Positions 20,201 through 60,887 of a stretch of DNA of 64,000 nucleotides are shown here, in pieces. The translations under genes were made by a program, and so were the position numbers. Source of the stretch: a virus (Duplodnaviria; Heunggongvirae; Uroviricota; Caudoviricetes); IMG/VR virus record IMGVR_UViG_3300031344_000001. The stretch is one strand, 5' to 3'. The stretch's first letter is position 1, and every line of letters starts with the position of its first letter. The notes under the pieces are model-generated. The model saw only the letters and a list, made by a program, of their open reading frames with translations, ran no database searches and was not told the origin of the DNA.

Positions 20201-20944
20201 TCAGGCGCTATTCAGCGCGGGGCTATCGCTGACGTCGTTGTCGTCGTCGGCATCATCGACGTCAGCGTTGATCGCGTCCTCGTCGAGCTCCTGGGGGTCC
20301 GGTGGAGCGCTGGTCTTGGCGTCCTTGCGCGCGAGCTGCTCCTGGGCCTGGGCCTGAACCTGCGCCTTTTTGGTCGCGATCGCCTTCTGCACGACGCCGG
20401 GCTTGGGCGCGATCAGCATCGTCATGCGCCGCCCGTCGAGGTTCGGCGCGGCCTCCACCGCGGAGAGGTCCTTGCAGCGTTCCACCACGCGGTCGAGGAC
20501 GCTCTTGCCCACTTGGGGGTGCGCCATCTCGCGACCGCGGAACACGACGACGAGCCGGACCTTGTTGCCCTCTTCGAGGAAGCGCCGGACGTGCTTGACC
20601 TTGAAGTCCATGTCGTGGCCCTCGGTCTTCGGCCGGAACTTGATCTCCTTCGTCTCGAAGGTCGTCGTGTTCTTGCGCTGCTGCTGCTTCTTCTTCGCCT
20701 CCTCGAACTTGAACTTGCCGTGGTCCATGATCCGGCACACTGGGGGCAGCGCGGTCGGCGAGATCTCGACGAGGTCGAGGCCCTTGTCTTCGGCGAGGCG
20801 CAGCGCCTGGTGCGTCGGCATGACGCCGAGCTGCTCACCCTCGTGGATGACGCGCACTTCGGTGGCGCGGATGCGGTGGTTGACGCGGTGCCCGGTCTGG
20901 GGGCGGCGGCGGTCGAAGCGGCCGGAGTTGGGGCGGCCGTTCAT
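20201..20944 (-). CDS. infC: Translation initiation factor IF-3 with C-terminal extension
   Basis: RVNHRIRATEVRVI, LDLVEISP..PPVCRIMDHGKFKFE, KEIKFRPK..HD..FK.KH.RRFLEEGNKVR. Confidence 0.95.
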   Translation of the reverse strand: MNGRPNSGRFDRRRPQTGHRVNHRIRATEVRVIHEGEQLGVMPTHQALRLAEDKGLDLVEISPTALPPVCRIMDHGKFKFEEAKKKQQQRKNTTTFETKEIKFRPKTEGHDMDFKVKHVRRFLEEGNKVRLVVVFRGREMAHPQVGKSVLDRVVERCKDLSAVEAAPNLDGRRMTMLIAPKPGVVQKAIATKKAQVQAQAQEQLARKDAKTSAPPDPQELDEDAINADVDDADDDNDVSDSPALNSA

Positions 20945-43723: not shown

Positions 43724-43929
43724 CGCGCGGATCGGGGGTCCACGACGACGTCTCGAGGCACTTCGGAGTGTGCTCGCAGTGCGCGAGCGTCCAGCCGGAG
43801 AGCGTCCGTGTCGCGCAGCCTGAGGCGCTTCGGCGGACCGTCCCCGACGACGTGCTCGTCAAGCTGTGCCTCGCCGGCCGGTCGATCTATCGGGCGTACC
43901 TGCGCTGGCTCGCGGAGCCCGACGAGTGA
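43720..43929 (+). CDS. Hypothetical protein (69 aa)
   Basis: Coupled; CSQC. Confidence 0.5.
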   Translation: MTRGSGVHDDVSRHFGVCSQCASVQPESVRVAQPEALRRTVPDDVLVKLCLAGRSIYRAYLRWLAEPDE

Positions 43930-44083
43930 GCGCCTCCAGCCGCGACTACGACCGGGACCGGGCCCTCTACGACTACGCGGTCCGGCGGGCGCTGTCCGTG
44001 TTGGTCGGCTATGCCGCGTGCCGCGGTCGGGGCTGGCACCATCTCGCCGACGGTGAGGTGATCGTCGCCGCGGAGATGGAGCT

Positions 44084-44277
44084 GTGACGGCCGACGAGGT
44101 GACAAGGGCCCCTGTGCGCGTGCTGCCGTGTCCCTTCTGCGGCGGGGCTGGCCATCGGTCCGCGCACGAGCACGAGCGCGGCATCGCTGTAGTCTTGGTG
44201 CTGGGACGAAGTCGGGCCGTGGCCGTGGCCGTGGCGCAGCGATCAGCGAGGATCGTCAGCTGATCAGATCAGGTGAT
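44084..44277 (+). pseudogene. Possible Lar-like (LPCPFCGG) gene remnant
   Basis: VLPCPFCGG followed by sequence broken up by short tandem duplications (GCACGA x2, GTGGCC x3) next to the array trailer. Confidence 0.35.
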
Positions 44278-44280
44278 GCT

Positions 44281-44985
44281 GTCGAGACCACGACGAGGTC
44301 TCGCATCGATTGCGCCGTTCTAGCTTTCTAGCTTGTTATGCAGGTACTTCTGTCGAGACCACAGCGCGGTTTCGCATCGATCGCGCCGGGCGCCGGGCGC
44401 CGAGCGCACCGGTCCCCACTCCGAGGTCGAGACCATCGCGAGGTCTCGCATCGAGCACGCCCGCTTCCGTGTCTCCTCTACGTCGAGACGTCGAGACCAT
44501 CGCGAGGTCTCGCATCTCTCGCAGCGCTTGCGCTGATCTGTGCGTCCGTGCGTCCATCCCTCTACGTCGAGACCACAGCGAGGTCGCGCATTTATCGTTA
44601 CGTGCTTGTGCTTGAGCGAGAAGCGAGAACGGTCCGGGGTCCGGGGTCCCGTGTCCTGTGTCCCGTTATCCGACGCCGACGCCGACGCCCGACGCCTTGT
44701 GGACTTTGTCGAGTGTCGAGACCCGAGACCCCAGTGAGGTCTCGCAGCGGTGATCTTCGTGCGCACGTCGTCTTCGAGACCACCGCGAGGTCTCGCATTG
44801 ATCATTGATCGCGCCAGGCACCAGGTAGCGGCTCTTCGCTCTCCGCTCTCCGTCTCCGTCGACTCAGCGATGATCCAGTCGAGACCACAGCGAGGTCTCG
44901 CATCGAGATCGCGTTGGCGAATCCACCGATTCACCTCAAGAACGTAAGCGTTGTCGAGACCACAGCAAGGTCTCGCATCGTTCGG
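44281..44985 (-). CRISPR. Degenerate type-A repeats (distal remnant of array A), about 9 copies
   Basis: GTCGAGACCAC(A/C)GCGAGGTCTCGCATCG variants at 44281, 44352, 44426, 44489, 44566, 44714, 44772, 44878, 44953. Confidence 0.85.
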
Positions 44986-45009
44986 CACTACACACTACAC
45001 GGTCAAGAA

Positions 45010-47922
45010 GTCTCGGTTGTTAACCAACCGAGCGGGTACGATCATAGGGTGTCCCTTAGAGCCTTAGACAGTGCAGTAGCTTCCTGTCTCAGCCGTCAAC
45101 CGGCTGAGCAAGTGCGACCAAGGGCCTCGGGCCTCGGGCTTGTGCCCCTCGGGCCTCGGGCCTCGGGGGTCGGGGAGAATGCACGGACTCCCACTCGTCT
45201 CGGGCGTCGACCGACCGAGCAAGTCTTGCGGTTTGCGGTGTGCCGGTGTGCCGGTGTGCCGGTGTGCCGTGTGCCGTTGCTCAAGTCCCGGTCGTCAACC
45301 GGCCGAGTGACCGAGTCTCATGGCACTGCGCTGTAATCCCCTTGCTGTCTCGGTCGTCAACCGACCAAGCAGGTACTCTCGCTACATGCACATGCGCGCA
45401 CTGGCACTCACTGACGTCAACCGTCCGTCTGAGCGTCTGAGCTGCAACAAGCTCAAGGCTGGTCTCGGACGTCAACCGTCCGAGCAGGCGCGATCACTCC
45501 GAAGCTCCGTAGGCATAGCTGTCTCGGACGTCGGACGTCAACCGTTCGAGCAGGTGTCGATCATCCGCACGAGTGTCGAGTGTCGAGTGTCGAGCGCAAA
45601 CTCGGGATTCTCTGTCTCGGACGTCAACCGTCCGAGCAGGTGCGATCACCTACCAGGGTGAGAGATGGAAACAATCTCCGTCTCGGGCGTCAACCGTCCG
45701 AGCAGGTGCGATCACTCTCATAGATCACGTGCTCCAGCCTCCAGCCTCCAGCCTCCAGCCTCCAGCCTCCAGACGTCGGATCAGGCTCGTCTCGGACGTC
45801 AACCGTCCGAGCAGGTGCGATCACCTGCCCCCCTGCCCCCCGCAGAGGCCGCAGAGGCGCAAGAACTCTCTCGCCAGTCTCGGACGTCAACCGTCCGAGC
45901 AGGTGCGATCACAGGCAGGTTCTCGCCTGGCTCCCGGCTCCCGGCTCCCGGCTCCACCTAACCAAGGTGTCTCGGACGTTAACCGTCCGAGCAGGTGCGA
46001 TCACCCGCTCGCTGAGCGTGAGCGTGAGCGGCCGATCGTAGCGGGTGTCTCGGACGTCAACCGTCCGAGCAGGTGCGATCACACGCGAGCATCGGGTGGC
46101 GCTGGCCCTCTCTAAACAATGCGTCTCGGACGTCAATCGTCCGAGCAGGTGCGATCATCTTCTGGACGCACGACGACAGATTCGGGATTCGGGTTGGCCC
46201 AGTCTCGGACGTTAACCGTCCGAGCCGCATCCCATGCGGCAGCGGCCCGATCCCTTGTCTCGGACGTCAACCGTCCGAGCAGGTGCGATCACCTCGCACG
46301 GGCGCGCGAGCCGTGAGGCCGTGAGCCGTCGATCGAGCTCAAGTCTCGGACGTCAACCGTCCGAGCAGGTGCGATCACTTGTGCGCGCGCATGCCGCGGG
46401 CGGCGGGCGGCGCGTGGTCTCGAACGTCAACCGTCCGAGCAGGTGCGATCACACGACGACGAATCAGCAGGCAAGGATAACTGCTGGTCTCGGACGTCAA
46501 CCGTCCGAGCAGGTGCGATCACAGGGGACGGACATCTTCGTGTTCGATCTTGGCACGCCTCGACCTCGAGCCACCTATAGTCTCGGACGTCAACCGTCCG
46601 AGCAGGTGCGATCACAAGCCACCCGCGACGCCTACGCGATGGAGCGTCGAGTCTCGGACGTCAACCGTCCGAGCGTCCGAGCAGGTGCGATCACACGCGC
46701 TGTACATCGGCCCCGGCGAGAAGTTCCGGTCTCGGACGTCAACCGTCCGAGCAGGTGCGATCACACGCGACCCGTGACCCGTTGCGCGAACGCGCGAACG
46801 GAACGGCCGGCTCCTCGTCTCGGACGTCAACCGTCCGAGCAGGTGCGATCACGCTCGGCGGCCAGCTGATCAGCACGCGCGATCGCTTGTCTCGGACGTC
46901 AACCGTCCGAGCAGGTGCGATCACAATTGGCGATCAGTTGCGCGCGGCTGCGCGCTCGTCTCGGACGTCAACCATCCGAGCAGGTGCGATCACCCGCAGT
47001 TCGGGCAGGGAGCGTCCTCAAAGATCTGTCTGTCTCGGACGTCAACCGTCCGAGCAGATGCGATCACCTTCGACCGGTAGCGCGAGCGCTCGGGTACTTG
47101 TGGTCTCGGACGTCAACCGTCCGAGCAGGTGCGATCACGCGTCTCGACGGGGTAGCGCACCGAAATGGTCCGGGTCTCGGACGTCAACCGTCCGAGCAGG
47201 TGCGATCACGAGGTCAGCCGGTGTCCCAAATGCGGCGCCTTCGGGTCTCGGACGTCAACCGTCCGAGCAGGTGCGATCACTTGTGACGCATGTGCTCGCG
47301 GCTGGCAGCACTCAGTCTCGGACGTCAACCGTCCGAGCAGGTGCGATCACAGGATCACGCGCGTCGCCTCGTTAATCAGTCCGTCGTCTCGGACGTCAAC
47401 CGTCCGAGCAGGTGCGATCATGCGAGAGCCGTGCCCGTCTGAATCACGATCTCCCAGCGTCTCGGACGTCAACCGTCCGAGCAGGTGCGATCACCGGCCG
47501 GGCGAAGCTTACCCGTTCAACTATCGAGTGTGGTCTCGGACGTCAACCGTCCGAGCAGGTGCGATCACAGGTGCCGCCTTTTGCTGCGTGTACAGGCGTT
47601 GGCTGTCTCGGACGTCAACCGTCCGAGCAGGTGCGATCACTCACCCATCGGACTGGCCAGTCCCTGGAGATCGGGTCTCGGACGTCAACCGTCCGAGCAG
47701 GTGCGATCACACGTCGTGACCGATCTAGCGATGACTAATCGGTTCGTCTCGGACGTCAACCGTCCGAGCAGGTGCGATCACCCTCGGCGCTGCGCGTAGC
47801 TGGTCTGCCCGTCTAGTCTCGGACGTCAACCGTCCGAGCAGGTGCGATCACTCGCAGCAGGCGATCCTCAAGCTGGCGCGGCCGATGTCTCGGACGTCAA
47901 CCGTCCGAGCAGGTGCGATCAC
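45010..47922 (-). CRISPR. CRISPR array B, about 39 x 36-nt repeats
   Basis: + strand GTCTCGGACGTCAACCGTCCGAGCAGGTGCGATCAC; minus strand GTGATCGCACCTG-CTCGGACG-GTTGA-CGTCCGAG-AC; ~34-37 nt spacers near 47.9 kb, degenerate toward 45.0 kb, so the leader is on the right. Confidence 0.97.
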
Positions 47923-48071
47923 CGGAGTTTCTTATTCAGTTGTCAAAGAAGGCACTTGCATCCTTCGATGCAGGCACCGGTAGCTTTACTCCACGCTCGT
48001 GCGTGTCGCGAGGGAGGACCCCTCTGAATGCTGCTGTACGGCCTGAGGTTTCGGGGGCGCATGAACCTCTT

Positions 48072-50009
48072 CTACGCGGCACGCCGCACCTGCGGCACCG
48101 GACCGCTCGACAAGCCGTGCCTGTGGAGGAGGTTGCGCGCGGCGTTCGCGTCCTGGTCCCAGGTCCGAATGCACGACGAGCAGGTGTGCTCGATCGAGGC
48201 TGCCGCGTCGAACGCCTCGACCGAGCCGCACCACGCGCACGCCTTGGTCGAGTCCGCGGCCTGCTCGGCCTCGACGCGGGCGCCGCGTTTGGGGGCGGCC
48301 TTGAGGATCTCGGCGCGAAGCTCGCCGGGAGCTGCAAGGCGGCTCATGCGGCGCTGCTCGCGCCCGTCGGACGGGTCGCCGTCCTCCGGCGCGGGCTGCT
48401 CCCAGCCGTCGACCTCGGTGAGCTTCATCGAGGTGTCGTGGTTCGACCCGCTCTCGATCAGGATCGTCGCGTAGCGGGCGGTGAGCTCGGCGGCGATCAC
48501 GCGCCACACCTCACGGCGGTGGGCGATCAAGCGATCGCGCTGGTGCTCCTCCCAGTTCTGGAGGTGTCGATCTTGGCGCGCCCACGCCTGGAGCACGGCG
48601 AGGATCGGACCGTCGCCGTCGATGCGGTTGGCCGTCGAGCCGAAGTCCGAAGGGTTGCACTTCTTGCCCTCGGCGCGAGCGACGCGCCAGGCGTCCCAGT
48701 CGATCCCAGTCCAAGCGTCGACGAGGGAGGCGAGCTTGCGGGGGGCGCGCCACTGCGCCAGGCTGCCGACGCGCTCGGCCATCCACGCGGGGGTCTCCCG
48801 GTCGAGCAGCCAGGCCGCGAGGCGGTCGCGCGCGGTCTCGAACTCCTTGTCGCGGATCGACGCCAGGTCGTGGACCTTGGCCATTCCCGTCAGCAGATCG
48901 TCGGGCACACGGATCTCGCGCTCGTGCCCGTGCTCGTCGACGAGGTAACCAACGCGCAGACCGACCTGCACGCCCTGGGCGTCGAACAGCCGCCGCCAGC
49001 CCAGGTCGATCGCGCAGGTCCCCTCGCCGATCGCCACCGGGCAGGCACGAAAGCGCTCGCTCTCGAGCGTGAGCTGGAACCTCCACTCGTAGTGACGGCC
49101 GACGCGCTTGCGCACGACGTACGCCCACTTGATCACCGCGTCCTTCGGGATGGGTCGGTGGAGGGTGAGGGGGAAGCGCGCGAAGATCGGCTTCCGGTCA
49201 GGGTGGCTGCCGACGCGCAGGTCGACGTACGTCCGTGCCGCGTGACGGCGCAGGTTGCGCGGGAGGCACGCGGCCTCCTCCCACGTGGCGCACGCTCCGA
49301 CCTCGGCGCGCGGGTGCTTGTCGGCGAGACCAGGGGTCCCCAGCCGGAGCCGGGAGTCCTGCTGCGACAGCAGCTCGCTGACGGTCATGCCGTAGATTCC
49401 CGGGGCGCCGTCGCGCGCGATGAGCTGCGTGCCGATCGATCCGGTCCCGTCGTAGCGCTCGAAGTGGAGCGGGCGCTTCGCCGTCTTGACGGCCTGCTTG
49501 ACCGAGTTCTCGACGCGGTCGTAGGTGCCGGTGCGCAGTCCTCGCTCGATGAAGGCGCGGCGGGCCTCCTTGCGGCGCAGCGCCGTGAGCGCGCGCGCGG
49601 CCTCGTAGCCCGGCTGGAGCTGCGCCGCGCGAGACGCCTTGGCCTCGCGCAGCTCCGCGCCGCACAGGGCGCGGAGGTCCTTGGCGCGGGCGAGCACCTC
49701 GCGCTCCGCCGTCAGGTCCGGGGCAGCGACGCCGGACTTCGCGGCCCGCAGGTCGTCGTAGGCGTCGTCGACGGCACCCGCCGCGTCCTCGTAGTCGCGG
49801 AGGGCCGCACCGACGATCGGATCCGCGAGCTGGACGCCGCGGAGGTCGTCCCAGAGCTTGTGCTCGATCTCGACGAGCGTGTTGCGGTACTGGTGCGCGA
49901 GGCGGAACTGCTCTTCGACGCGGTTCACCTCGGTGATCGGAGGCAGGCAGCGGTACGAGTAGATCCGGGTCGGGACGTCGGAAGTCTTCTTCCTGGGCTG
50001 TCGCGGCAT
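48072..50009 (-). CDS. cas12m: Cas12m-like (type V-U1/V-M) effector 1 with intact RuvC D-E-D triad (645 aa)
   Basis: RYDGTGSIGTQL, HRPIPKDAVIKWA.VVRKRVG, RuvC-I AIDLGWR, QWRAPRKLASL, RuvC-II ILIES, LAAPGELR, CAWC..CSSC zinc finger, RuvC-III WDQDANAARNLL; directly upstream of array B; ATG 50009 preferred over 50081. Confidence 0.85.
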   Translation of the reverse strand: MPRQPRKKTSDVPTRIYSYRCLPPITEVNRVEEQFRLAHQYRNTLVEIEHKLWDDLRGVQLADPIVGAALRDYEDAAGAVDDAYDDLRAAKSGVAAPDLTAEREVLARAKDLRALCGAELREAKASRAAQLQPGYEAARALTALRRKEARRAFIERGLRTGTYDRVENSVKQAVKTAKRPLHFERYDGTGSIGTQLIARDGAPGIYGMTVSELLSQQDSRLRLGTPGLADKHPRAEVGACATWEEAACLPRNLRRHAARTYVDLRVGSHPDRKPIFARFPLTLHRPIPKDAVIKWAYVVRKRVGRHYEWRFQLTLESERFRACPVAIGEGTCAIDLGWRRLFDAQGVQVGLRVGYLVDEHGHEREIRVPDDLLTGMAKVHDLASIRDKEFETARDRLAAWLLDRETPAWMAERVGSLAQWRAPRKLASLVDAWTGIDWDAWRVARAEGKKCNPSDFGSTANRIDGDGPILAVLQAWARQDRHLQNWEEHQRDRLIAHRREVWRVIAAELTARYATILIESGSNHDTSMKLTEVDGWEQPAPEDGDPSDGREQRRMSRLAAPGELRAEILKAAPKRGARVEAEQAADSTKACAWCGSVEAFDAAASIEHTCSSCIRTWDQDANAARNLLHRHGLSSGPVPQVRRAA

Positions 50010-50018
50010 CCGTGAATG

Positions 50019-50046
50019 GCTAACAGGATGATAGACGTTTTGCAAG
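50019..50046 (-). promoter_or_regulatory. 28-bp upstream element of effector 1 (putative promoter/operator)
   Basis: Minus strand CTTGCAAAACGTCTATCATCCTGTTAGC, identical at 60316-60343; TTGCAA-N17-TAGCCA would place +1 at about the ATG 50009. Confidence 0.7.
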
Positions 50047-50112
50047 GCTTCGTGACGGCGGTCCCCCTGGGACAGAGTCACTACCCCGGAGCGTACACGG
50101 CGTCCGATTCAC

Positions 50113-53100
50113 GTCGAGACCACTGCGAGGTCTCGCATCGATCGCGTGATCGCCTGTTGGTCGAGGTTTCACATCGATCGTGCCGCCTTGCCGTGCCAGG
50201 TGAGCAAGCGCTTGCACACGTCGAGACCACAGCGAGGTCTCGCATCGATCGCACCAACCTGAAATCGTCGGCGCCTTCATCCGGACGATTCGTCGGTCGG
50301 TTGAGACCACAGCGAGGTCTCGCGTCTCGCATCGATTGTGCCGAGAGTCGGCGCGGAGTTCTACGTTGACTTCTTCGGGTCGAGACCACCGCGAGGTCTC
50401 GCATCGATCAGGCCCGGCAATTTCATTGGCCGGAACTCCCAGTACCGGCTGGTCGAGACCACCGCAAGGTCTCGCATCGATCCCAGCCCAAATGTGAATC
50501 CGTCGAGACCACCGCGAGGTCTTGCATCGATCATCGATTGGGCCTCCCGCCCGCTCGCCAGCTCGCCGGGTTAGCAGTGGTCTCGACGAGCGGATCTACC
50601 GCGAGGTCTCGCATTGATCGTACCCCTTTTCCCTCGCCGTTTTCGCGGTCGTTGAGACCACTGCGCGCTGCGAGGTCTCGCAGCGATCGGGCCGAGCGGC
50701 CGAGCGGCCGAACGGAGCTGCCCCCAGCTCACGCGCTCGTAGGCTGATCGACCGGCTCGTCGAGACCGCCGCGAGGTCTCGCATCGATCGTGGCACTTCT
50801 TCGGGACCATACCCGTCACCTTGAGGAGAACTCGTCGAACCTCGTCGAGACCACCGTGGTCTCGCATCGATCGTGCCAATCGATTCGCGCAACGTCGATC
50901 GTGTCTGATTCGACGAGCTCGGGGCGAAGCGGTCGAGACCACAGCGAGGTCTCGCATCGATCATGCCTGTGGTGACGAAAAGGGCTGACAACGGTGACCT
51001 GTGGGTCGAGACCACAGCGAGGTCTCGCATCGATCGTGCGTCGGTGACTTGCTTCGATCGTGTCTTTGTCGGGGGCTTGCGCGAAACTTGGACCATGGGC
51101 AGTCGAGACCACAGCAAGGTCTCGCATCGATCACACCTGCGAACGGCGAGCTTCACAGTCAAGACGGCGCGCATTGATCTTGGCAGGCTTCAAGTTTCAA
51201 GTCCCTCGTGCGCCTTATCGTCCGTATCGTCGCGTTCTGGTCGAGACCATCGCGAGGTCTCGCATCGATTGCACCAGGGCTGCTCTGTGCCCTGGGGGCA
51301 TGCTCGGTGCTCGGCTGCTCGTCGAGACCCCTGCAAGGTCTCGCACTGACCGGAACTGATTCGCAACCACCTGTCGAGACCACCGCAAGGTCTCGCATCG
51401 ATTGTGCCGTTTGTACGTGAGGTTGATGAGGGGACGTCGAGAGTCGAGACCACCGCTCCTCATGGCAGCGTCGGGGTGGACCAACGACCAACGGTCGAGA
51501 CCACCGTGAGGTCTCGCATTGATCGTGCCCCCTTCTTGGGCCAGCAGGCGTCCTCCGTCAAGTGGTCGAGACCACAGCACAGCGAGGTCTCGCATCGATC
51601 GCGCCTCGATATCGCGCGGGCGCGCGGTGGTGGCTCAATGCTCAATGTTGTCGAGACCGTAGATGACCTGCGGCATTGCGGCACATTGAGCGTGGTCGAG
51701 ACCACAGCGAGGTCTCGCATCGATTGTGTCACTCGGCGATCTCGTTGTCCGTACCCCGTCGCCGCAGTCGAGACCACAGCGAGGTCTCGCATCGATTGTG
51801 CCCGACCTCGTGATTCGTGATTCGACGTGAGGATGGAGATCCCGGTGTCGAGATCTCGCGTCGATTGTGCCGTGGACGCCAAGTGGAGCGAGAGCCTTGG
51901 TAAAGCTGTCGAGACCACCGCGAGGTCTCGCATCGATCGTGCCAAGTAGGCTGCACATGAGTCGATGGCCGTTCGGCGTGTCGAGACCACCGCGAGGTCT
52001 CGCATCGATCGAGCTTGCGCACAGGTTTTCGAGACCACCGCGAGGTCTCGCATCGATCGTGCCGTGAAGACGTAGTCCCCGCGCGGCGGACTCGCATTGT
52101 CGAGACCACCGCGAGGTCTCGCATCGATTGTGCCCGTCAGCCCAAGCACCCTGTCGCGCTGGGAGTCGAGACCACCGCGAGGTCTCGCATCGATTGTGCC
52201 GCCTAGGCGCAGGCGTCTCACCTACGCAATCGCTAAGTCGAGACCACCGAGGTCTCGCATCGATCGTGCCGGGGGGCCGGGGATCGTCGACCGTCGGCCC
52301 AACTGCGGACAGTCTAGGCGAGACCACAGCGAGGTCTCGCATCGATCGTGCCCAGCGCTTGCTCGCTTCCTCTTCGCGCGCCGATGACGACGTGTTGCGG
52401 CGGTAACAGGTAACAGGTGCGCACCGGGTGTTTGGGTCGAGACCACAGCGAGGTCTCACATCGATTGTGCCCCGGCTAAGCTGAAGAACCGTGACCCCAA
52501 ACTACGGCGAGTCGAGACCACAGCGAGGTCTCGCATTGATTGTGCCCCGTGACCAGGCTCGAGTACGTCAGCTTCAGCACCGTAGGGTCGAGACCACAGC
52601 AAGGTCTCGCATCGATTGTGCCAGCCTCAGGCTCCGCGTCCTGCTATTCCCGTTCGTCCAAGTCGAGACCAGCGCGGTCTCGCATCGATTGTGCCACGTG
52701 CCACGCGAGCCGCATCCCAGCCGTCAGGGTGTCGAGACCACCGCGAGGTCTCGCATCGATTGATTGTGACGCCGTGCAGCGCGCCAAGAATCGGGGCGAT
52801 GCCAGTGTCGAGACCACCGAGGTCTCGCATCGATTGTGCCGTACCGCCGCGAGCGCGCCTTGACCGACGTAGAGCGTGTCGAGACCACCGCGAGGTCTCG
52901 CGTCTCGCATCGATTGTGCCGCGACACTCGCCGAAGTCGACCTCCGATCCCGACCCTGTCGAGACCACCGCGAGGTCTCGCATCGATTGTGCCTCCGCAC
53001 CGTGCGCTGCGCGCTTCGGTGTCGTCTGGTCGAGACCACCGCGAGGTCTCGCATCGATTGTGCCTGCCGGCCTGCCGGCCTGCCGGCATCGCGCCGACGT

Positions 53101-56100
53101 CGTGGACGTGGGCACACCCGTCGTCGAGACCCCCGCGAGCACAGCACCGATCGTCAACTGGTCGAGACCACCGCGAGGTCTCGCATTGATTGTGACCGCT
53201 CGGGTCACCCACCATCTGCCGTGACACGATCTTGTCGAGACCACCGCGAGGTCTCGCATCGATTGTGCCGACGGACGCGGACGTCGTCGAGAAATGTCGG
53301 CCCTTGTCGAGACCACCGCGAGGTCTCGCATCGATCATCGATCGTGCCTTGCCACGACTACGCATGTGGCTCGGCGGGTCTGCGCGTGGGGCCACACCTC
53401 GGACTGGTCGAGACCACCGCGAGGTCTCGCATCGATCATGCCGTTACCTGCTAAGACGGTAAGCAGGGAGGTCGTCGAGACCACTGCGAGGTCTCGCAGC
53501 GATCGTGCCCGTGAGGTCTCGCCCCTGCGACGTTGGGATCGGTCGTTGGTCGAGACTACCGCAAGGTCTCGCATCGATCGTGCCGCAACAGAATTCGTGA
53601 CGGCGCCGATACTCGGAGCGGTCGAGACCACCGCGAGGTCTCGCAGCGATCGTGCCCAGGCATCTATCAAGGCTACGCTTGCACGGGCGCTCGTCGAGAC
53701 CACCGCAAGGTCTCGCATCGATCGTGCCCTTTGCTGTCATGTGTCCTCTTCTTCCTTCTTCCTTGCAGGTTGTCGAGACCATCGCGAGGTCTCGCATCGA
53801 TCGTGCCGCGCGGTCGCGCCGTCGCGCGGGACGCGATGCTGTAGTCGAGACCACCGCGAGGTCTCGCATCGATCGTGCCGCTCGCGTAGCGAGGTGCCAA
53901 CGGCGTTCTTACGAGGTCGAGACCACCGCGAGGTCTCGCATCGATCGTGCCGCCCAGGAGCGTCAGAGTGTCGACCATTTCGCCGTGTCGAGACCACCGC
54001 GAGGTCTCGCATCGATCGTGCCGTTCAACCCGCACTCGGGCAAGCACAAGACGCTCGGTCGAGACCACCGCCGTGACGGATGAGCCTGTTGCTGTTGGGC
54101 AGGCCTACGTCGTATTGGTCGAGACCACCGCGAGGTCTCGCATCGATCGTGCCCTGGCTGTCCTTAAGACGAGGCCCCTATGGACCGAGAGTCGAGACCA
54201 CCGCGAGGTCTCGACCACATGGCTCCGGCTCTGGTCGAGACCACCGCGAGGTCTCGCATCGATCGTGCCGTCTCCACGTTCACGCCGCCCTCCCACGCGA
54301 GCCAGTCGAGACCACCGCGCGGTCTCGCATCGATCGTGCCGTGCCACGTGCCACGTGCCACAGCAGCAGCGAGCCCAGACTAGACAGTTCGTCGAGACCA
54401 CCGGGAGGTCTCGCATCGATCGTGCCAGTCGGTCGCTTGACCATGGCTAACCTCAAAAATGTGTCGAGACCACCGCGAGGTCTCGCATCGGTCGTGCCCT
54501 CGATACGGACCCGAGAAACGGAAACTGGTTTTTCAGTCGAGACCACCGCGAGGTCTCTCATCGATCGTGCCGGCCAAGTCTTCCTCGGTCGTCGAGCGCC
54601 CGCCGGCCTTGTCGAGACCGCCGCGAGGTCTCGCATCGATCGTCGATCGTGCCCTCTTGTAGACCCAGCCGTGTAGCCGATAGAGCTGCTTGTCGAGACC
54701 ACCGCGAGGTCTCGCATCGATCGTGCCGTCTCGTCGCTCGCCATGCTCGCCGGCACACCGAACCCGTCGAGACCACCGCGAGGTCTCGCATCGATCGTGC
54801 TCCCAGGCGAGCGAGTCGAGGTAGTCGCGGACCGGGTGGGTCGAGACCACCGCGAGGTCTCGCATCGATCGTGCCGCACGCGGGCGCGCGCTCGGTGTCG
54901 TTGACCGTTGACCGAGGAGGTCGAGACCACCGCGAGGTCTCGCATCGATCGTGCCGCCGTGCAATTGCGGACGGCCGATCTACTTCCGGTGGTCGAGACC
55001 ACCGCGAGGTCTCGCAATCGATCGTGCCGGTCGAGAGTGCGTGACCGAAAACACGGAACCGGAGGCTGGTCGAGACCACCACGAGGTCTCGCATCGATCG
55101 TGCCGTACAGGTTCGCCGTGGTGCCCTTGGGCGCACCGTAGTCGAGACTACCACGTCATAGCGGCCGTCGAGACCACCGCGAGGTCTCGCATTGATCGTG
55201 CCGCGACCTCGTCGAGGTGCCGCTCGTCGTTCATTCTTGTCGAGACCACCGCGAGGTCTCGCATCGATCGTGCCTTGCCTAGCCGCCGAGGCGTTCGGCG
55301 ACAAGACAGCGGGTCGAGACCACCGCGAGGTCTCGCATCGATCGTGCCGCGGCCGGGCAGGAGGGCAGGAAGTTGAACGTCGAGTCAACTTTGTCGAGAC
55401 CACCGCGAGGTCTCGCATCGATCGTGCCGAACGCCGAACACTGCTGAGCGGCAGGCGATACTCCTAGGGCAGTCGAGACCACCGCGAGGTCTCGCATCGT
55501 CGCATCGCTCGTGCCTGCAACGCGCGGTTCGCTCAGCGGGGGTTGGAGGTGGTCGAGACCACTGCGAGGTCTCGCATCGATCGTGCCCGCGACTCGTTCG
55601 TCGTTCGCCGCGTCGGCCGTAGTGCGCCGGGTCGAGACCACTGCGAGGTCTCGCATCGATCGTGCCACGCGCGCCAAGTCGGTCCAACTAAGAGCCCCAA
55701 TCGTTGTCGAGACCACCGCGAGGTCTCGCATCGATCGTGCCCAGCCGACCGAATTCGCCACTGCATTTACGACGCTGTGTCGAGACCACCGAGAGGTCTC
55801 GCATCGATCGTGCCGAACGCGGGCGCGTCGGGCTCGAGTTCGTTCCATTGGTCGAGACCACCGCGAGGTCTCGCATCGATCGTGCCGCGCGCATCGTGCG
55901 GCAAGCGTGCGGCAAGCGTGCGGCATGAGCTTGTCGAGACCGCCGCGAGGTCTCGCATCGATCGTGCCTTATCGTCGGACTTGCCGATCCCGAGCTGCCC
56001 TTTTGTCGAGATCACTAGGTCTCACATCGATCGTGCCGGTTATGGCGCCCTCGTTGTCGCAGTGCCCGTTCTCGTCGAGACCACCGCGAGGTCTCGCATC

Positions 56101-58007
56101 GATCGTGCCGATCGTCGACGTGGAACGTGGAGGCGCGTTGGCGCAACCGGAAGTCGAGACCACCGCGAGGTCTCGCATCGATTGTGCCCGTCGCGCGCTC
56201 GCCCGATATCGATGAGCCCAACGTGTCGAGACCACCGCGAGGTCTCGCATCGATCGTGCCGGGAAGTAGGCTGCACATGAGTCGATGGCCGTTCTGCGTG
56301 TCGAGACCACCGCGAGGTCTCGCATCGATCGTGCCGTCTAACGTGGCTGCTCACCGGAGCCGTGGTTCGCTGTCGAGACCACAGCGAGGTCTCGCATCGA
56401 TCGTGCCTCGGGAATTCCAAGACCTCCGTCAGCGGTTCCTCTCGTCGAGACCACAGCGAGGTCTCGCATCGATCGTGCCGGTGTCAAACGTGCGATGGAA
56501 CAGGCGGAGGTTTAGGTCGAGACCACCGCGAGGTCTCGCATCGATCGTGCCTGAACACGTTCTTGCCGTTGGCGCCTTCGCCATAATGGTCGAGACCACC
56601 GCGAGGTCTCGCATCGATCGTGCCGTTGTGCAGACACTTTGCCGTAACGACGCCGGTGTCGTCGAGACCACCGCGAGGTCTCGCATCGATCGTGCCGAAC
56701 GACTCGAAGGTCGCGACATCGACGCATCTGTCGTCGAGACCACCGCGAGGTCTCGCATCGATCGTGCCCGCGTGCGAAGCAGAGATGCCCTCGAGCAGTC
56801 GCTCGTCGAGACCACCGCGAGGTCTCGCATCGATCGTGCCGCTGCGCGACCGCGACGAAGCTCGTCGTCCTCATAGATGCTCACGTCACGTCGAGACCAC
56901 CGCGAGGTCTCGCATCGATCGTGCCACAGGAGTAGACACGGATCCACGGAGGAACCAATGGGTCGAGACCACAGCGAGGTCTCGCATCGACGACGTGATC
57001 GCCCGTTGGTCGAGACCACCGCGAGGTCTCGCATCGATCGTGCCAGGTCGGGCTGGACCTTGGCAGTCGAGACCGCTGCGAGGTCTCGCATCGATCGTGC
57101 CGAAAGCGGCCGGGTCGGGCGCGGGCGCGATCTGCGCGTCGAGACCCCCGTGAGGTCTCGCGTCTCGCATCGATCGTGCTGTTCAGGATCTCAGCCGCAG
57201 CGAGCGAGGTGTCTATGTCGAGATGTCGAGACCACCGCGAGGTCTCGCATCGATCGTGCCCAGCAACGAACCCGGGCTAGAGAGTTCGAACCCATGTCGA
57301 GAGTCGAGACCACCGCGAGGTCTCGCATCGATCGTGCCGATCGCCGCCGCGATTGAAGCAGCGCTCGTCTCTGGCGTCGAGACCACCGCGAGGTCTCGCA
57401 TCGATCGTGCCTGATCTGAGCGGCCTTGTCGATCGGCTCAAGGTCGAGACCACCGCGAGGTCTCGCATCGATCGTGCCGGCTCGGACGCATGACCAAGAG
57501 CGTTACGTTCGATGTGTCGAGACCACCGCGAGGTGCCATGACCTCACCATAGCGCGCCCGCGATCGTGCCGACGAACCCGAATTCCTCCGCCGAGGACAA
57601 TCCGTAGGTGTCGAGACCACCGCGAGGTCTCGCATCGATCGTGCCGGGGCTTGGGCTCGATCCGCGCTACACGATCTCGTCGTCGAGACCACCGCGAGGT
57701 CTCGCATCGATTGTGCCCGCCTGACGGTACGCCGCCGGGGCGGAGGGCTGCGTGTCGAGACCACCGCGAGGTCTCGCATCGATTGTGCCCTCGACCGTCT
57801 CGTGCCAGCCCTTCGGGATTCGCACGTCGAGACCACCGCGAGGTCTCGCATCGATTGTGCCCACTCTCGTGGTCTCGTGGCAATACCCACTCGACGTGCG
57901 TCGAGACCACCGCGAGGTCTCGCATCGATTGTGCCGCGCCGCTTGTCCGGTGGCGACCAGGACTTCAGGATGTCGAGACCACCGCGAGGTCTCGCATCGA
58001 TTGTGCC
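50113..58007 (-). CRISPR. CRISPR array A, about 105 x 36-nt repeats including partial copies
   Basis: + strand GTCGAGACCACCGCGAGGTCTCGCATCGAT(C/T)GTGCC; minus strand GGCACGATCGATG-CGAGACC-TCGCGGT-GGTCTCG-AC; variation mostly in the 7-nt loop; most regular near 58 kb, degenerate near 50-52 kb. Confidence 0.98.
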
Positions 58008-58028
58008 TTCGATTGTCAGAGAACGAAC

Positions 58029-58300
58029 CATGCTTATCCGGTTGTCACCCCTCGCGGGCGCGACGGATCTCCTTGATCTTTCGCTCGGCGCGCTTCGCAG
58101 AGGCTCGCCATTCAGCGAGAGCTTCCGTTGGGGTGAATTCTTGAATCGTTCCGCCGACGTTGATCACGGACGGTCGCTTGCCCAGAGAGGCGGAAAGAAG
58201 CTCGCCCATTTCGGAGCGGATGATTTTAAGTTCACGTTCGAGTCGCGATGCCATTTGATGTCTCCCTGATCACGTTTGGGGTGTTAACCGGATAAGCATG
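58029..58300. mobile_element. Mini gene cassette 2 (MITE/MIC-like) inserted in the CRISPR leader
   Basis: CATGCTTATCCGGTTGTCACCCC (58029-58051) and inverted GGGGTGTTAACCGGATAAGCATG (58278-58300); GAACGAAC direct repeat at 58021-58028 and 58301-58308. Confidence 0.85.
58045..58254 (-). CDS. Cargo ORF of cassette 2 (69 aa, helical)
   Basis: GGGAG RBS; TGA stop lies inside the TIR. Confidence 0.65.
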   Translation of the reverse strand: MASRLERELKIIRSEMGELLSASLGKRPSVINVGGTIQEFTPTEALAEWRASAKRAERKIKEIRRAREG

Positions 58301-58312
58301 GAACGAACGATC

Positions 58313-60268
58313 CTACGGCGTTGCGGGGCTCGGCGCGAGCGGCTGCTGGTCCTTCCGCCGGTTCCGCCGCGCCGGGGCCTTCTTCTTCGTCGAAGGTGCC
58401 GGAACCTTGGGGTCGAGCGGCCACCCGCTCTCGCCGCGCGCGACGGCGCTCGCGGCGGCGAGCAGGTTTCGGCTCATCGTGATGTCCTGGTCCTCGGCGT
58501 GGCCGCAGTTCTCGCAGCGGATCACCCGCTGCACCCGGTCTTCCCGCGAGACGTCGCGGTGGTGACCGCAGGCCGCGCAGTCGAGCGTCCCACCGGCAGC
58601 GTCGACCTCCAGGTCGACGCTGCCGTACTTCTTCGCGAAGTAGCCGACGCGGGCGCGGGCGCGCCCGGGCCCCAGGATGTTCACGCGGCGCGCCGTCTTC
58701 TTGCGCAGCTTCTGCTCGTCCTCGTCGTGCTGGTCGTCCTTCTCGACGAGGCCGGTCACGTCGAAGTCGTCGCGGGCGACGACCCCGTAGCGCTTGGCCA
58801 GCTGGACCGCGACCGCGGTGACGCGGCCCTCGACCTGGCGCTGCATGCGCTCGAGGCTCGGCACCTCGCGGTGGAGCAGGTGGACGTCCTGCTTGCTCCA
58901 CGCCTCCAGCGCCGCGAAGGCCGGCTGGTCGCCGTGGATGCGCTGGTCTCGCCACTGCCGGTGCAGGCGGACGTACTTGCTGGGGGCCCGCCAGTTGTGC
59001 ATGTGGCGGCTCTCTTCGCGGAGCCACGACGTCGCCGGCAGCGACCGGGCGTAGGCGAGGATCATGTCGCGGAGCACGTCCTGGTTCTGGTCGCGGATCG
59101 AATGGATCGAGTCGGCCCAGGGTTTCACACCGAGCACGTCCTCGGGGATCACGAGTTGCCCCCAGAGCGGGCTCGCGGGGTCGTTGGGGTCGAGTGGCGC
59201 GGTGGCGCTCCACGTGAGCAGGCGGATGCCCGCCTTCTTGCCCTCCTCGTCGAAGAGCTGACGCCAGCCGATGTGGACGGCGACCGCGTCGTGCGGGTGC
59301 GGGTGCGGGGTGGTCACGGCCACGGAGCCCTCGACCTCAAGCGTGAGGTACCAGCGGTAGCGGAGCCCGGTGCGCTCGCGCCGGACCACGGCCCACTTGA
59401 CGACGTCGTGCCCGAGCTGGAGGCGGTTCTTCGTGCGCGGGGACTGGTGCAGGAGCAGGTGCATCTGGGCCCAAATCGGGCGGATGGTGCCCGGCACAGT
59501 CCCGACGCGGATCGCGAGCGCGTGGAAGCGCTTGCCCTTCGTGGCGGCCTCTCCCGCGCGCGGCCCGATCTTGATGACGTCTCCCGGGTTCCCGGCGACG
59601 TCGATCGCGCGCCCCTCGGCGTCGACCGCGGCGGGTCGGAAGTGGTCGACCGGGGCACCCAGCGAGTACGCGACCGATCCGATGCGCAGCCAAGACCCTT
59701 CGCCGCCGATGAGATCGTCGGCGTAGACGGACTTCTTGGCGGGAAGTGTCTTGCCGGTCCGCGCGTCGATGCGCGCGTTCTGCCGCTGGAACTGGACGGC
59801 GATGCGGCCCACGTCCGGGGGGAAGTCCGTCCCCACGAACGTGGTCCGGCCGTTTTCGTCGATGAGCCCTGCCTTGTCGATCGTGCGCCGCGCGAAGTCG
59901 GCCGCGTCGTCCGCCTTGCCGAGCGTCCCCCACATGGCTCCCGCCTCGATCGTCGCGTCGCGCACGGCCTTGAGCGCGCGCTTCTTCCCCGCGAACACGC
60001 GCTCGCGGAGGGCCTTGAACTCGTCAGAGGCGTGCCACGCATCGCGGGCAGCTTTCCCAGCCTCCGACTTCCACCACGCGCCACGCGCTTCGACGGGTAC
60101 GTCCCTGGCCGGGTAGTCGATGAGCGCGCGCCGGAGGAAGCGCTCGCGGTTCTCGATGAGCGCGATCTGTCGGCGGTAGCGCGCGCCGAGGCGCACCTGC
60201 TCGCGCAAGCAATGGTCGTCGGCGGCCGTCGCCGGGAGACAGAGGAACTTGTACACGCGCATCGTCAT
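58313..60268 (-). CDS. cas12m: Cas12m-like (type V-U1/V-M) effector 2 with inactive-type RuvC H-D-D (651 aa)
   Basis: GRIAVQFQRQ, RuvC-I VAVHIGWR, NWRAPSKYVRL, WSKQDVHL, RuvC-II VVARDD, CAAC..CENC zinc finger, RuvC-III EDQDITMSRNLL; same H/D/D pattern recalled for MmCas12m; upstream of array A. Confidence 0.85.
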   Translation of the reverse strand: MTMRVYKFLCLPATAADDHCLREQVRLGARYRRQIALIENRERFLRRALIDYPARDVPVEARGAWWKSEAGKAARDAWHASDEFKALRERVFAGKKRALKAVRDATIEAGAMWGTLGKADDAADFARRTIDKAGLIDENGRTTFVGTDFPPDVGRIAVQFQRQNARIDARTGKTLPAKKSVYADDLIGGEGSWLRIGSVAYSLGAPVDHFRPAAVDAEGRAIDVAGNPGDVIKIGPRAGEAATKGKRFHALAIRVGTVPGTIRPIWAQMHLLLHQSPRTKNRLQLGHDVVKWAVVRRERTGLRYRWYLTLEVEGSVAVTTPHPHPHDAVAVHIGWRQLFDEEGKKAGIRLLTWSATAPLDPNDPASPLWGQLVIPEDVLGVKPWADSIHSIRDQNQDVLRDMILAYARSLPATSWLREESRHMHNWRAPSKYVRLHRQWRDQRIHGDQPAFAALEAWSKQDVHLLHREVPSLERMQRQVEGRVTAVAVQLAKRYGVVARDDFDVTGLVEKDDQHDEDEQKLRKKTARRVNILGPGRARARVGYFAKKYGSVDLEVDAAGGTLDCAACGHHRDVSREDRVQRVIRCENCGHAEDQDITMSRNLLAAASAVARGESGWPLDPKVPAPSTKKKAPARRNRRKDQQPLAPSPATP

Positions 60269-60315
60269 TGTTGGGCGCCCCGCTGTCGCACGTGCTGTTG
60301 TTGCATTGACGAACA

Positions 60316-60343
60316 GCTAACAGGATGATAGACGTTTTGCAAG
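60316..60343 (-). promoter_or_regulatory. 28-bp upstream element of effector 2, identical to 50019-50046
   Basis: GCTAACAGGATGATAGACGTTTTGCAAG on the + strand; also lies just upstream of the divergent RHH gene. Confidence 0.7.
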
Positions 60344-60348
60344 ACGCA

Positions 60349-60522
60349 ATGTTCGAGCCGAAGCAACAAGCCGCGGAGAAACTCAGCCACTACATCGGTG
60401 CGCGCGTCACCGACACCGAAGAGTCGTGGCTCCGCGCCGAGATGAAGCGCAGAAAGATCACGATGAGTGACTTGATGCGCCTCGCGCTCGGCAAGCTCTT
60501 CGTTTCCAAGAAGACGGGGTGA
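60349..60522 (+). CDS. Ribbon-helix-helix-like regulator, divergent from effector 2
   Basis: YIGARVTDTEESWLRAEMKRRKITMSDLMRLAL resembles the CopG/Arc pattern; ATG 60349. Confidence 0.6.
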   Translation: MFEPKQQAAEKLSHYIGARVTDTEESWLRAEMKRRKITMSDLMRLALGKLFVSKKTG

Positions 60523-60887
60523 CCTTGGCGATCGAGTGCAAGGAGATGCACGAGTGGGCGTCGTGGCGTGACGAGTACACCCTCGCCGACGTCGAGAAGG
60601 CGCTCGCGTTCGCCGGCCTCAAGGGGTGGAAGTTCGACCACTGGTCCGACGGGGACGCGCAGTTCATGCACCCCGGGCCGGTGACGTTCGACGACCTCGC
60701 CAAGCTGCGGGTCACGTTCACGCCCCGGAGCATGGTCGTCGAGGCGGTCGTCGACCAGGACGCGGAGGACGAGCGGTTGGTCGCGTGGGAGCGCGCGGGG
60801 GCTAACCCGCTCGACCGTGGCGCCACGGCCTTGATGGTGCTGGTGACGATGAGCTGGAACGAAGTCTCCGACGCGGGGGCCGCCTGA
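60519..60887 (+). CDS. Hypothetical protein (122 aa)
   Basis: ORF track; coupled. Confidence 0.6.
   Translation: MTLAIECKEMHEWASWRDEYTLADVEKALAFAGLKGWKFDHWSDGDAQFMHPGPVTFDDLAKLRVTFTPRSMVVEAVVDQDAEDERLVAWERAGANPLDRGATALMVLVTMSWNEVSDAGAA

What the first reader, a model, noticed from the sequence alone, without database searches (positions are those of the whole stretch)
44281..58007. CRISPR nested in CRISPR: effector 1 plus array B sits inside the old end of array A
Seen: minus-strand order is effector 2, array A (58007-50113), effector 1, array B (47922-45010), then ~9 more degenerate type-A repeats (44985-44281). The loop variants ACAGCGA and ATCGCGA, most frequent at the 50.2-52.6 kb end of array A, also dominate the 44 kb remnant. 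Inference: a ~5 kb effector-plus-array module was inserted into the trailer of a pre-existing array A. A single long transcript could carry both guide types.
Basis: partly seen in the sequence, partly recalled or inferred. Interest (0 to 1): 0.8.

Follow-up and report, generated by a model that had tools for sequence, protein, structure and literature searches.

The report
Two interleaved phage Cas12m CRISPR loci
A roughly half-megabase uncultivated soil phage-like element carries two different Cas12m (type V-M) CRISPR modules fused head to tail, each flanked by pieces of the other, which records how recombination shuffles CRISPR modules, although the system type itself is already known.

Summary
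On the minus strand lie effector 2, array A (about 101 repeats, 58006-50113), effector 1, array B (about 39 repeats, 47922-45010), then 9 degenerate A-type repeats (44987-44281) with no leader. Independent assemblies reproduce the junctions.

Both effectors are Cas12m, 25% identical. Effector 1 has a D-E-D RuvC triad and effector 2 has H-D-D.

In a 332-kb relative the two modules are separate loci 31 kb apart, each with an uninterrupted array. The remnant repeats match the old end of array A and differ from its young end (p about 1e-5). However, the shared variants are ancestral states.

A new result complicates the one-way insertion story. A perfect 28-bp copy of the effector-1-type promoter lies on both sides of effector 2 plus array A. 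Effector 2 has also lost its native upstream gene and now sits behind the effector-1-type regulator gene, promoter and start codon.

The locus is therefore interleaved and needs at least two recombination events, and which module entered which is unresolved. I found no targets, no RNA data and no adaptation genes.

The scan already noted this nested layout on another assembly (e1-1857690). I rate it a new variant of a known kind, of moderate interest.

The parts
60349..60522 (+). Small RHH-like regulator gene (57 aa, MFEPK...), divergent from effector 2. It overlaps the start of the next gene (60519-60887) by 4 nt.
   Evidence: 66-75% identical to the gene that sits divergently upstream of effector-1-type Cas12m in L002, L017, L018, L020 and L024. 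The Pfam hit to NikA-like (an RHH fold) is weak and below threshold, E 0.0025, and its homologs give the same weak hit.
60316..60343 (-). P1, copy 1 of the effector-1-type promoter-like element (CTTGCAAAACGTCTATCATCCTGTTAGC).
   Evidence: Exact 28-nt repeat of 50019-50046. It aligns with the RHH-to-effector-1 intergenic region of five relatives.
60265..60306 (-). 13-codon upstream ORF (MQQQHVRQRGAQQ*). It starts at the ancestral effector-1 start codon, and its TGA overlaps the effector 2 ATG (ATGA).
   Evidence: The 5'UTR plus ATGC is identical to L020; homology to effector-1 genes stops after ATGC.
58313..60268 (-). Effector 2: Cas12m-like protein, 651 aa, RuvC triad H-D-D.
   Evidence: Pfam PF07282. 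PDB 23vw Cas12m, E 1.3e-25. Triad from the alignment. Homologs at 51-83% identity.
58029..58300 (.). 272-bp MITE-like insertion with terminal inverted repeats and an 8-bp target duplication (GTTCGTTC), between the effector 2 stop codon and the leader of array A.
Evidence: terminal repeats match 18819-18842.
58007..58021 (-). Leader motif of array A (CTCTGACAATCGAAG). It is related to the conserved TTTGACAAC box found before the first repeat in relatives.
50113..58006 (-). Array A, main part: about 101 repeats. Perfect at the 58-kb end and increasingly degenerate toward 50 kb.
50047..50112 (-). J: 66 nt between the last repeat of array A and P2. Origin unknown.
   Evidence: No homology to any held sequence, and no sign of a split repeat.
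50019..50046 (-). P2, copy 2 of the effector-1-type promoter-like element, 9 nt upstream of the effector 1 ATG.
48072..50009 (-). Effector 1: Cas12m, 645 aa from the ATG at 50009, RuvC triad D-E-D.
   Evidence: Pfam PF07282. PDB 23vw E 1.2e-64 and Cas12m2 8hhl E 9e-26. Triad. 109 homologs.
47923..48071 (-). Leader of array B: a conserved hairpin (47978-47951) followed by the TTTGACAACTGAATA box (47947-47931).
   Evidence: Conserved in L002, L017, L018, L020 and L024.
45010..47922 (-). Array B: about 39 repeats. Perfect at 47.9 kb and heavily degenerate below 45.5 kb.
44988..45009 (-). 22-nt junction between the last B repeat and the first remnant A repeat. Contains a 7-nt tandem duplication.
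44281..44987 (-). Remnant of 9 degenerate A-type repeats, with no leader.

Best explanation
This is a composite type V-M CRISPR locus on a huge soil phage-like element. It was built by recombination from two Cas12m modules that occur as separate loci in relatives. My favoured history has two steps. First, a unit made of promoter P2, effector 1 (D-E-D Cas12m) and array B was inserted into the old, decaying part of a long array A. This cut off array A's last 9 repeats, which now lie as a dead, leaderless remnant behind array B. Second, in a separate event, effector 2 (H-D-D Cas12m) lost its native co-directional upstream RHH-like gene. It was placed behind an effector-1-type cassette consisting of a divergent RHH-like regulator gene, the promoter, the 5'UTR and the start codon, to which it is now translationally coupled through a 13-codon upstream ORF. 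Both effector genes therefore sit behind identical 28-bp promoter cores next to a single regulator gene. Shown here: the anatomy, the family assignments, the module independence in relatives and the promoter duplication. Inferred: the order and direction of the events. Also inferred, by analogy with characterised Cas12m, is the function: each effector processes its own pre-crRNA and silences targets by PAM-dependent DNA binding without cleavage, probably against competing mobile elements. Each array also keeps its own conserved leader box, so separate array transcripts are likely. Read-through is the only route by which the remnant could be expressed.
For: Effector identity. Published work shows D-E-D, H-D-D and N-D-D Cas12m proteins bind but do not cut dsDNA, use no tracrRNA, process their own pre-crRNA, and that such systems typically lack adaptation genes (PMC11013384, PMC10442227). 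Module independence: one 332-kb contig holds both modules 31 kb apart on opposite strands, with uninterrupted arrays. L002, L017 and L024 show complete B-type arrays with no A-type repeats after them. Remnant belongs to the array A lineage: it shares GC at repeat positions 1-2, where three outgroups have TA. Decay continues smoothly, with core errors of 1.7 at the array A trailer and 2.4 in the remnant, and 5' mismatches of 2.0 and 3.5. The remnant has no leader and only a 22-nt gap. Regulatory swap: 5 of 5 effector-1-type relatives have a divergent RHH gene, then P, then the effector. 4 of 4 effector-2-type relatives instead have a co-directional RHH-like gene ending 3-33 nt before the effector. 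In the window, effector 2 has the effector-1-type arrangement. The reverse model would need a donor that already carried P2 behind array A, which makes it less parsimonious. Junctions are reproduced in independent assemblies.
Against: The structure is symmetric. P flanks effector 2 plus array A, just as A-type repeats flank effector 1 plus array B. P1 keeps the left-flank homology and P2 the right-flank homology, which is the classic signature of an insertion into the effector-1 locus. The variants shared by the remnant and the trailer are ancestral, so they do not prove contiguity. The junction flanks do not reconstitute a split repeat or spacer. The 28/28 identity of the P core next to a diverged 9-nt UTR is not explained by any simple model. 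Flank synteny rests on one distant relative (the 119-aa gene). No relative close enough to share spacers was found. Function, expression and targets are untested.
Confidence: 0.45

Rival explanations
1. Reverse or reciprocal nesting. The resident locus was effector-1-type: RHH gene, P, effector 1, array B. It had itself earlier replaced most of an older A-type module, leaving the 9-repeat relic. Effector 2 plus the present array A then entered at the promoter and start codon of effector 1. This could have happened by unequal crossover between two allelic hybrid loci of co-infecting phages, or by Campbell-type integration at P, either of which would duplicate P.
For: P1 retains homology to relatives on its left (the RHH start) up to the effector-1 ATGC. 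P2 retains homology on its right (the effector-1 coding sequence). This is the pattern expected when an insert is bounded by a duplicated target or crossover site. RHH plus P is exclusive to effector-1-type loci in relatives, 5 of 5 against 0 of 4. One unequal crossover between two loci that each run from P to an A-type array would give exactly the observed order P, A, P, A. The remnant is more decayed than the array A trailer, as expected for an older relic.
Against: It needs either a donor that already had P behind array A, or three events. No relative shows A-type repeats behind a B array. The 119-aa gene next to RHH is the effector-2 flank in the 332-kb relative. The remnant shares lineage-specific repeat states with the main array. 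The UTRs of P1 and P2 differ at 5-7 of 9 positions, which does not fit a fresh target duplication.
Confidence: 0.33
2. The 44-kb A-type repeats are a separate, independently decayed array. Either it is a second A-type array that lost its effector and leader, or it was carried in with the array B module. In this reading it is not the severed end of array A.
For: The shared variants are ancestral states (the TCGCTGT loop in L019; G at position 3 in all outgroups). No spacer is shared between the remnant and the main array. The remnant is more degenerate than the array A trailer.
Against: There is no leader box and only 22 nt between the last B repeat and the first remnant repeat. Orientation is the same, and decay follows a continuous gradient. 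GC at repeat positions 1-2 is shared with the main array against all outgroups. No such appendage occurs in any relative.
Confidence: 0.12
3. The layout is an assembly chimera created by repeat-induced misjoins in short-read metagenome assembly.
For: Two Logan contigs (L010, L011) jump across array B from its first repeat to the repeat at 45462-45497. This shows that repeat collapse does occur in some assemblies.
Against: Contigs assembled from other samples by three pipelines (ENA, JGI and Logan) match the window at 99.97-100% identity across the junctions they cover. The ENA contig names (k141) suggest a k-mer of 141, longer than the 35-36-nt repeats. The junctions lie in unique sequence (J, P2 and the 22-nt linker).
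Confidence: 0.02

Closest known systems
Type V-M CRISPR-Cas12m (MmCas12m2, PDB 8HHL/8HHM/8HIO; GoCas12m; the entry titled 'CRISPR-associated DNA-binding protein Cas12m', 23vw)
   Same: A single compact TnpB-derived effector of about 600-650 aa, followed by an array of about 36-nt repeats with a 3' hairpin. No adaptation genes are in view. RuvC triads are of the D-E-D and H-D-D types described for the family (PMC11013384, PMC10442227).
   Different: Two effectors only 25% identical sit head to tail in one locus. The arrays have about 110 and 39 repeats. The locus is carried by a huge phage-like element. Small RHH-like genes are attached, and the promoter is duplicated. No biochemistry was done here.
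MvCas12m locus of myxophage MV-1 (bioRxiv 10.64898/2026.09.14.751636)
   Same: A phage-encoded type V-M system with one Cas12m next to an array, no cas1/cas2/cas4, no tracrRNA and no protospacers found.
   Different: MV-1 has one effector (610 aa, D-E-D) and 8 spacers. The locus here has two effectors of different triad types and more than 140 spacers in an interleaved layout. I did not test any sequence relationship to MvCas12m.
CRISPR-Cas systems of huge phages (Al-Shayeb et al. 2020, PMC7162821; Cas12j/CasPhi)
   Same: Huge-phage loci that lack the acquisition machinery and are thought to target competing phages.
   Different: That survey reports compact arrays, with a median of six repeats. 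Here and in relatives the arrays hold 40-110 repeats. The effector family is different.
cas gene clusters flanked by two arrays of the same repeat type (for example some type I-A and I-F loci; from my own knowledge, not tested here)
   Same: Arrays of one repeat type lie on both sides of effector genes.
   Different: In those loci each array has its own leader and serves the enclosed cas genes. Here the enclosed effector uses a different repeat type, and the downstream A-type block has no leader and is decayed.

Membership tests
Type V-M (Cas12m) CRISPR-Cas | Single effector with a TnpB/Cas12-type RuvC domain plus a zinc-finger (TNB) domain | tested here: met
   Pfam PF07282 is above its cutoff for both effectors. 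NCBIfam guided_TnpB gives a partial match.
Type V-M (Cas12m) CRISPR-Cas | Sequence similarity to experimentally characterised Cas12m proteins | tested here: met
   Effector 1: 23vw E 1.2e-64 and Cas12m2 8hhl E 9e-26. Effector 2: 23vw E 1.3e-25 over residues 288-606 only, and a weak match to UnCas12m4a. Effector 2 is therefore the more divergent member.
Type V-M (Cas12m) CRISPR-Cas | RuvC triad of one of the family's known types (D-E-D, N-E-D, H-D-D, N-D-D and others) | tested here: met
   The effector 1 family is D-E-D, with some N-E-D members. Effector 2 and six of its seven homologs are H-D-D, and the most distant homolog (51% identity) is D-E-D. The types are listed in PMC10442227 and PMC11013384.
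Type V-M (Cas12m) CRISPR-Cas | Adjacent CRISPR array, downstream of and co-oriented with the effector, whose repeats form a 3' stem-loop | tested here: met
   Arrays begin 35 nt (ignoring the MITE) and 149 nt after the stop codons. The predicted hairpins have energies of -12.2 and -16.1 kcal/mol at the repeat 3' ends.
Type V-M (Cas12m) CRISPR-Cas | No adaptation module (cas1/cas2/cas4) | tested here: inconclusive
   I found none among the largest ORFs of the window. The small ORFs and the rest of the roughly 461-kb element were not searched, because no genome is held.
Type V-M (Cas12m) CRISPR-Cas | No tracrRNA; self-processing of pre-crRNA; PAM-dependent DNA binding without cleavage | not testable with these tools
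   This needs small-RNA sequencing and biochemistry. It is inferred only by analogy (PMC11013384).
Ribbon-helix-helix (RHH) transcriptional regulators (for the 57-aa gene at 60349-60522) | Significant match to an RHH family profile | tested here: inconclusive
   NikA-like PF21983 gives E 0.0025, 18 bits against a cutoff of 27. The homologs and the co-directional gene of effector-2-type loci give the same weak hit. No fold was predicted.

The most novel reading that the evidence does not exclude
In huge phages, long CRISPR arrays and shared promoter cassettes may act as landing pads that let whole effector-plus-array modules be stacked by recombination between co-infecting relatives. This locus would be a caught-in-the-act example. 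It would yield a dual-effector unit (an H-D-D and a D-E-D Cas12m) co-regulated by one small RHH protein through two identical promoter copies, with two guide types that could be expressed together.
Probability: 0.3. Interest if true: 0.65.

Novelty: new variant of a known kind. Interest (0 to 1): 0.5.

Why it matters
Type V-M systems and phage-borne CRISPR loci are already known, so the parts are not new. Three things are unusual:
- Two Cas12m modules are physically interleaved, with breakpoints legible at nucleotide level.
- One effector has captured the other's regulator, promoter and start codon.
- The arrays are about ten times longer than usual for phages, with no acquisition genes in view.

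If the recombination reading holds, the locus documents a concrete route by which single-effector CRISPR modules are exchanged and stacked among huge phages. It also offers a natural pair of orthogonal, compact DNA-binding Cas12m proteins with distinct repeats under a common regulator. The decayed, leaderless remnant together with the gradient of repeat decay gives a rare internal time axis for array evolution.

Tried and rejected
- **Viral contig collection (IMG/VR).** Protein-pattern searches with both effectors and repeat-pattern searches with both repeat types found nothing.
- **BLAST of effector 1 against plasmids and of both arrays against phage genomes.** No match.
- **Spacers against the window and all held loci.** Only 13-19-nt chance matches, so no protospacer and no PAM. 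No spacer is shared with relatives or between the remnant and the main array. One spacer occurs twice within array A.
- **RNA runs.** No RNA holder was listed.
- **Laying contigs of four DNA runs on 43800-60700.** Population variants lacking one module therefore could not be sought.
- **Whole-genome search.** No genome is held.
- **tblastx synteny.** It was swamped by high-GC noise and I replaced it with tblastn of called genes. The flank downstream of the remnant matched neither relative locus, so that synteny test is inconclusive.
- **Split repeat at the insertion site.** I tested whether the end of J and the 22-nt linker reconstitute a split A repeat. The match was no better than shuffles (2076 of 5000).
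- **Intrinsic terminators between the modules.** The number found was no higher than in shuffled sequence, which says little either way.
- **A real short-array-B strain.** The L010/L011 contigs that skip most of array B are best read as graph collapse at identical repeats.
- **VIPR system.** Rejected, because VIPR uses a RAMP protein and GGY/NN repeats.


Full report
**What is there.** The window has 67% G+C. Earlier notes of this scan place it in an uncultivated element of at least 461 kb, most likely a huge soil phage, and the runs that hold it are rhizosphere metagenomes. Reading the minus strand between 60.5 and 44.2 kb, the features are as follows.
- A 651-aa ORF, effector 2, at 60268-58313.
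- A 272-bp MITE-like insertion at 58300-58029.
- About 101 repeats of type A from 58006 to 50113.
- 103 nt of unique sequence.
- A 645-aa ORF, effector 1, from the ATG at 50009 to 48072.
- A 149-nt leader.
- About 39 repeats of type B from 47922 to 45010.
- A 22-nt linker.
- Nine degenerate type A repeats from 44987 to 44281.

A-type cores occur nowhere else in the window.

**The layout is not an assembly artefact.** Eleven contigs from other samples, made by three pipelines (ENA, JGI and Logan), match the window at 99.97-100% identity. L003 runs collinearly across 55537-38066 and covers both junctions flanking effector 1 plus array B. L013 covers the region upstream of effector 2. Two Logan contigs skip most of array B between two near-identical repeats, which I read as graph collapse.

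**What the genes are.** Both ORFs carry the Cas12f1-like TNB domain and match solved Cas12m structures. Effector 1 matches 23vw at E 1.2e-64 and Cas12m2 8HHL at 9e-26. Effector 2 matches 23vw at 1.3e-25. The two are only 25% identical to each other. In family alignments effector 1 and its homologs have a D-E-D (sometimes N-E-D) RuvC triad. Effector 2 and six of its seven homologs have H-D-D. Both triad types are described for Cas12m, and in published assays proteins of both types bound but did not cut dsDNA, used no tracrRNA and processed their own pre-crRNA (PMC11013384, PMC10442227).

Both repeats fold into a 3' hairpin followed by (G)AC on the minus strand, which fits minus-strand transcription. 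I found no cas1, cas2 or cas4 among the large ORFs of the window. The rest of the element could not be searched.

**Relatives show two independent modules.** The effector 1 family is large, with 109 clusters. The effector 2 family is small, with 8. One 332,853-bp JGI contig encodes both. It has an effector 2 homolog (70% identity) followed by an uninterrupted A-type array of 52 repeats. It also has an effector 1 homolog (62%) followed by 46 B-type repeats. The two lie about 31 kb apart on opposite strands. Other effector-1-type loci (L017, L018, L020, L024) and effector-2-type loci (L014, L019, L025) are also stand-alone. None carries the other repeat type.

Each array type has a conserved box (TTTGACAAC...) a few bases before its first repeat. 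The B leader also has a hairpin that keeps pairing through compensatory changes. The 44-kb remnant has neither feature.

**Is the remnant the old end of array A?** Repeat decay rises steadily along array A. Core errors go from 0.4 to 1.7 per repeat and 5'-part mismatches rise to 2.0. The remnant continues the trend at 2.4 and 3.5, and spacers there carry more tandem micro-duplications.

Loop variants other than the young TCGCGGT form occur in 8/9 remnant repeats, 14/25 old-end repeats and 8/65 young-end repeats. G at position 3 occurs in 5/9, 6/25 and 1/65. The remnant differs from the young end at p of about 1e-5 and does not differ from the old end.

These states are ancestral, however. The closest effector-2 relative (83% identity, L019) uses the TCGCTGT loop at its leader end, and all three outgroups have G at position 3. 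They therefore show that the remnant is old, but they do not show that it was once joined to the present array. A better marker is GC at positions 1-2, which the remnant and the main array share against TA in all outgroups. No spacers are shared with relatives or between the remnant and the main array. The junction flanks do not reconstitute a split repeat.

**The new finding is that the nesting is reciprocal.** In five of five effector-1-type relatives, a small RHH-like gene (MFEPKR...) lies divergently about 40 nt upstream of the effector. Between the two is a conserved promoter-like element. In four of four effector-2-type relatives, a different RHH-like gene lies co-directionally and ends 3-33 nt before the effector.

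In the window, effector 2 lacks that native gene. Instead it is preceded by the effector-1-type RHH gene (60349-60522), the promoter element (60343-60316), the ancestral effector-1 5'UTR and its ATGC. Homology to effector-1 genes stops there. A 13-codon ORF follows, and its TGA overlaps the effector 2 ATG.

A second, 28/28-identical copy of the promoter element sits at 50046-50019, directly before effector 1. Copy 1 keeps homology to relatives on its left, and copy 2 keeps it on its right. From the viewpoint of the effector-1 locus, then, effector 2 plus array A is the insert. From the viewpoint of array A, effector 1 plus array B is the insert.

**History.** The order is RHH-P1 | effector 2, array A | J, P2, effector 1, array B | remnant. 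It needs at least four novel junctions and so at least two events.

The alternative, at about 0.33, is that effector 2 plus array A entered an effector-1-type locus at its promoter, or that two hybrid alleles underwent an unequal crossover. The remnant would then be a relic of an earlier A-type array. This reading fits the flank-homology pattern of P1 and P2 best. It requires either a donor that already had P behind array A, or a third event.

The identical 28-bp cores next to 9-nt UTRs that differ at 5-7 positions are not explained by either model. Gene conversion or selection on an operator is possible. Flank synteny is thin. The 119-aa gene beside RHH is the effector-2 neighbour in the 332-kb relative, and nothing downstream of the remnant matched.

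**Function and expression.** By analogy, each Cas12m should process and use only its own repeat type and silence targets by binding. No protospacer was found in the phage or plasmid collections or in the held loci, so the targets are unknown. Each array has its own leader box and each effector has a copy of P. Separate transcription units are therefore at least as likely as one long transcript. The terminator scan found no more hits than in shuffled sequence, which says little either way, so read-through remains possible. The remnant could only be expressed by read-through. No RNA data were available.

**Comparison and novelty.** Type V-M systems are known, and a phage-borne Cas12m with 8 spacers was reported in 2026 as the first in a phage (10.64898/2026.09.14.751636). 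Huge-phage arrays have a median of six repeats (PMC7162821), so arrays of 40-110 repeats in this phage group are unusual. A limited literature search found no description of interleaved modules. The scan had already flagged the nested layout on another assembly of essentially the same element (e1-1857690). I add three things: the evidence from relatives, the ancestral-state caveat, and the promoter and regulator duplication that makes the nesting reciprocal. I rate it a new variant of a known kind, with interest 0.5.

Noticed in passing
window 58029-58300 (twin at 18819-19152): A 272-bp MITE-like element with terminal inverted repeats and an 8-bp target duplication (GTTCGTTC). It is inserted exactly between the effector 2 stop codon and the leader box of array A, and it carries a small ORF of about 69 aa. 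It may uncouple the effector and the array transcriptionally.
   Followed up: partly
window 44281-52000 and 45010-46700: Exact 5-12-nt tandem duplications in spacers become more frequent toward the old ends of the arrays. They occur in up to 62% of spacers there, 25-34% overall, and 10-19% in relatives' arrays. Spacer lengths spread from 15 to 135 nt around modes of 37 and 35.
   Followed up: partly
window 45010-45400 vs L002 12366-15838: The oldest B repeats have the stem variant CTCGGTTGG...CCGAG that is the standard repeat in relatives. The young B repeats carry compensatory stem changes (CTCGGACG/CGTCCGAG). The array therefore records the evolution of its own repeat.
   Followed up: partly
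window 47951-47978; L017, L018, L020, L024 leaders: A hairpin between the effector 1 stop codon and the array B leader box is conserved, with compensatory base changes across relatives. It may be a terminator or a processing or regulatory element.
   Followed up: no
L001 about 9750-9997, L014, L019, L025 1824-2072: Effector-2-type loci in relatives carry a small co-directional RHH-like gene (...AWRAAAKRxDxTLSEWVRQL...) that ends 3-33 nt before the Cas12m gene. It could be an undescribed accessory or regulator of this Cas12m clade. It is missing in the window.
   Followed up: partly
window 44123-44182 (+): A short plus-strand fragment encodes LPCPFCGG..., resembling the N-terminus of Lar-like (restriction alleviation) zinc-ribbon proteins of L002 and L017. 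It reads toward the remnant and appears truncated. In L017 a Lar-like gene also converges on the end of the B array. The evidence is weak (E 0.03; 20-22-nt DNA matches).
   Followed up: partly
window 51943-51979 and 56263-56299 (approx.): One 36-nt spacer occurs twice in array A (97% identical), once in the old part and once in the young half. This could be re-acquisition or an internal duplication.
   Followed up: no
window 20201-20944 (-), 14716-15978 (+), 16122-17330 (+), 61880-63283 (+): The element encodes a full-length translation initiation factor IF-3, a Mg-chelatase/ComM-like AAA+ protein, a PAPS-reductase-like protein and a ResIII/DEAD helicase.
   Followed up: no
L017 13958-14641: The 227-aa 'Lar' gene call in this relative runs into the degenerate end of the B array. 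Its C-terminal half is translated CRISPR repeats, so it is a likely annotation artefact in public gene calls.
   Followed up: no
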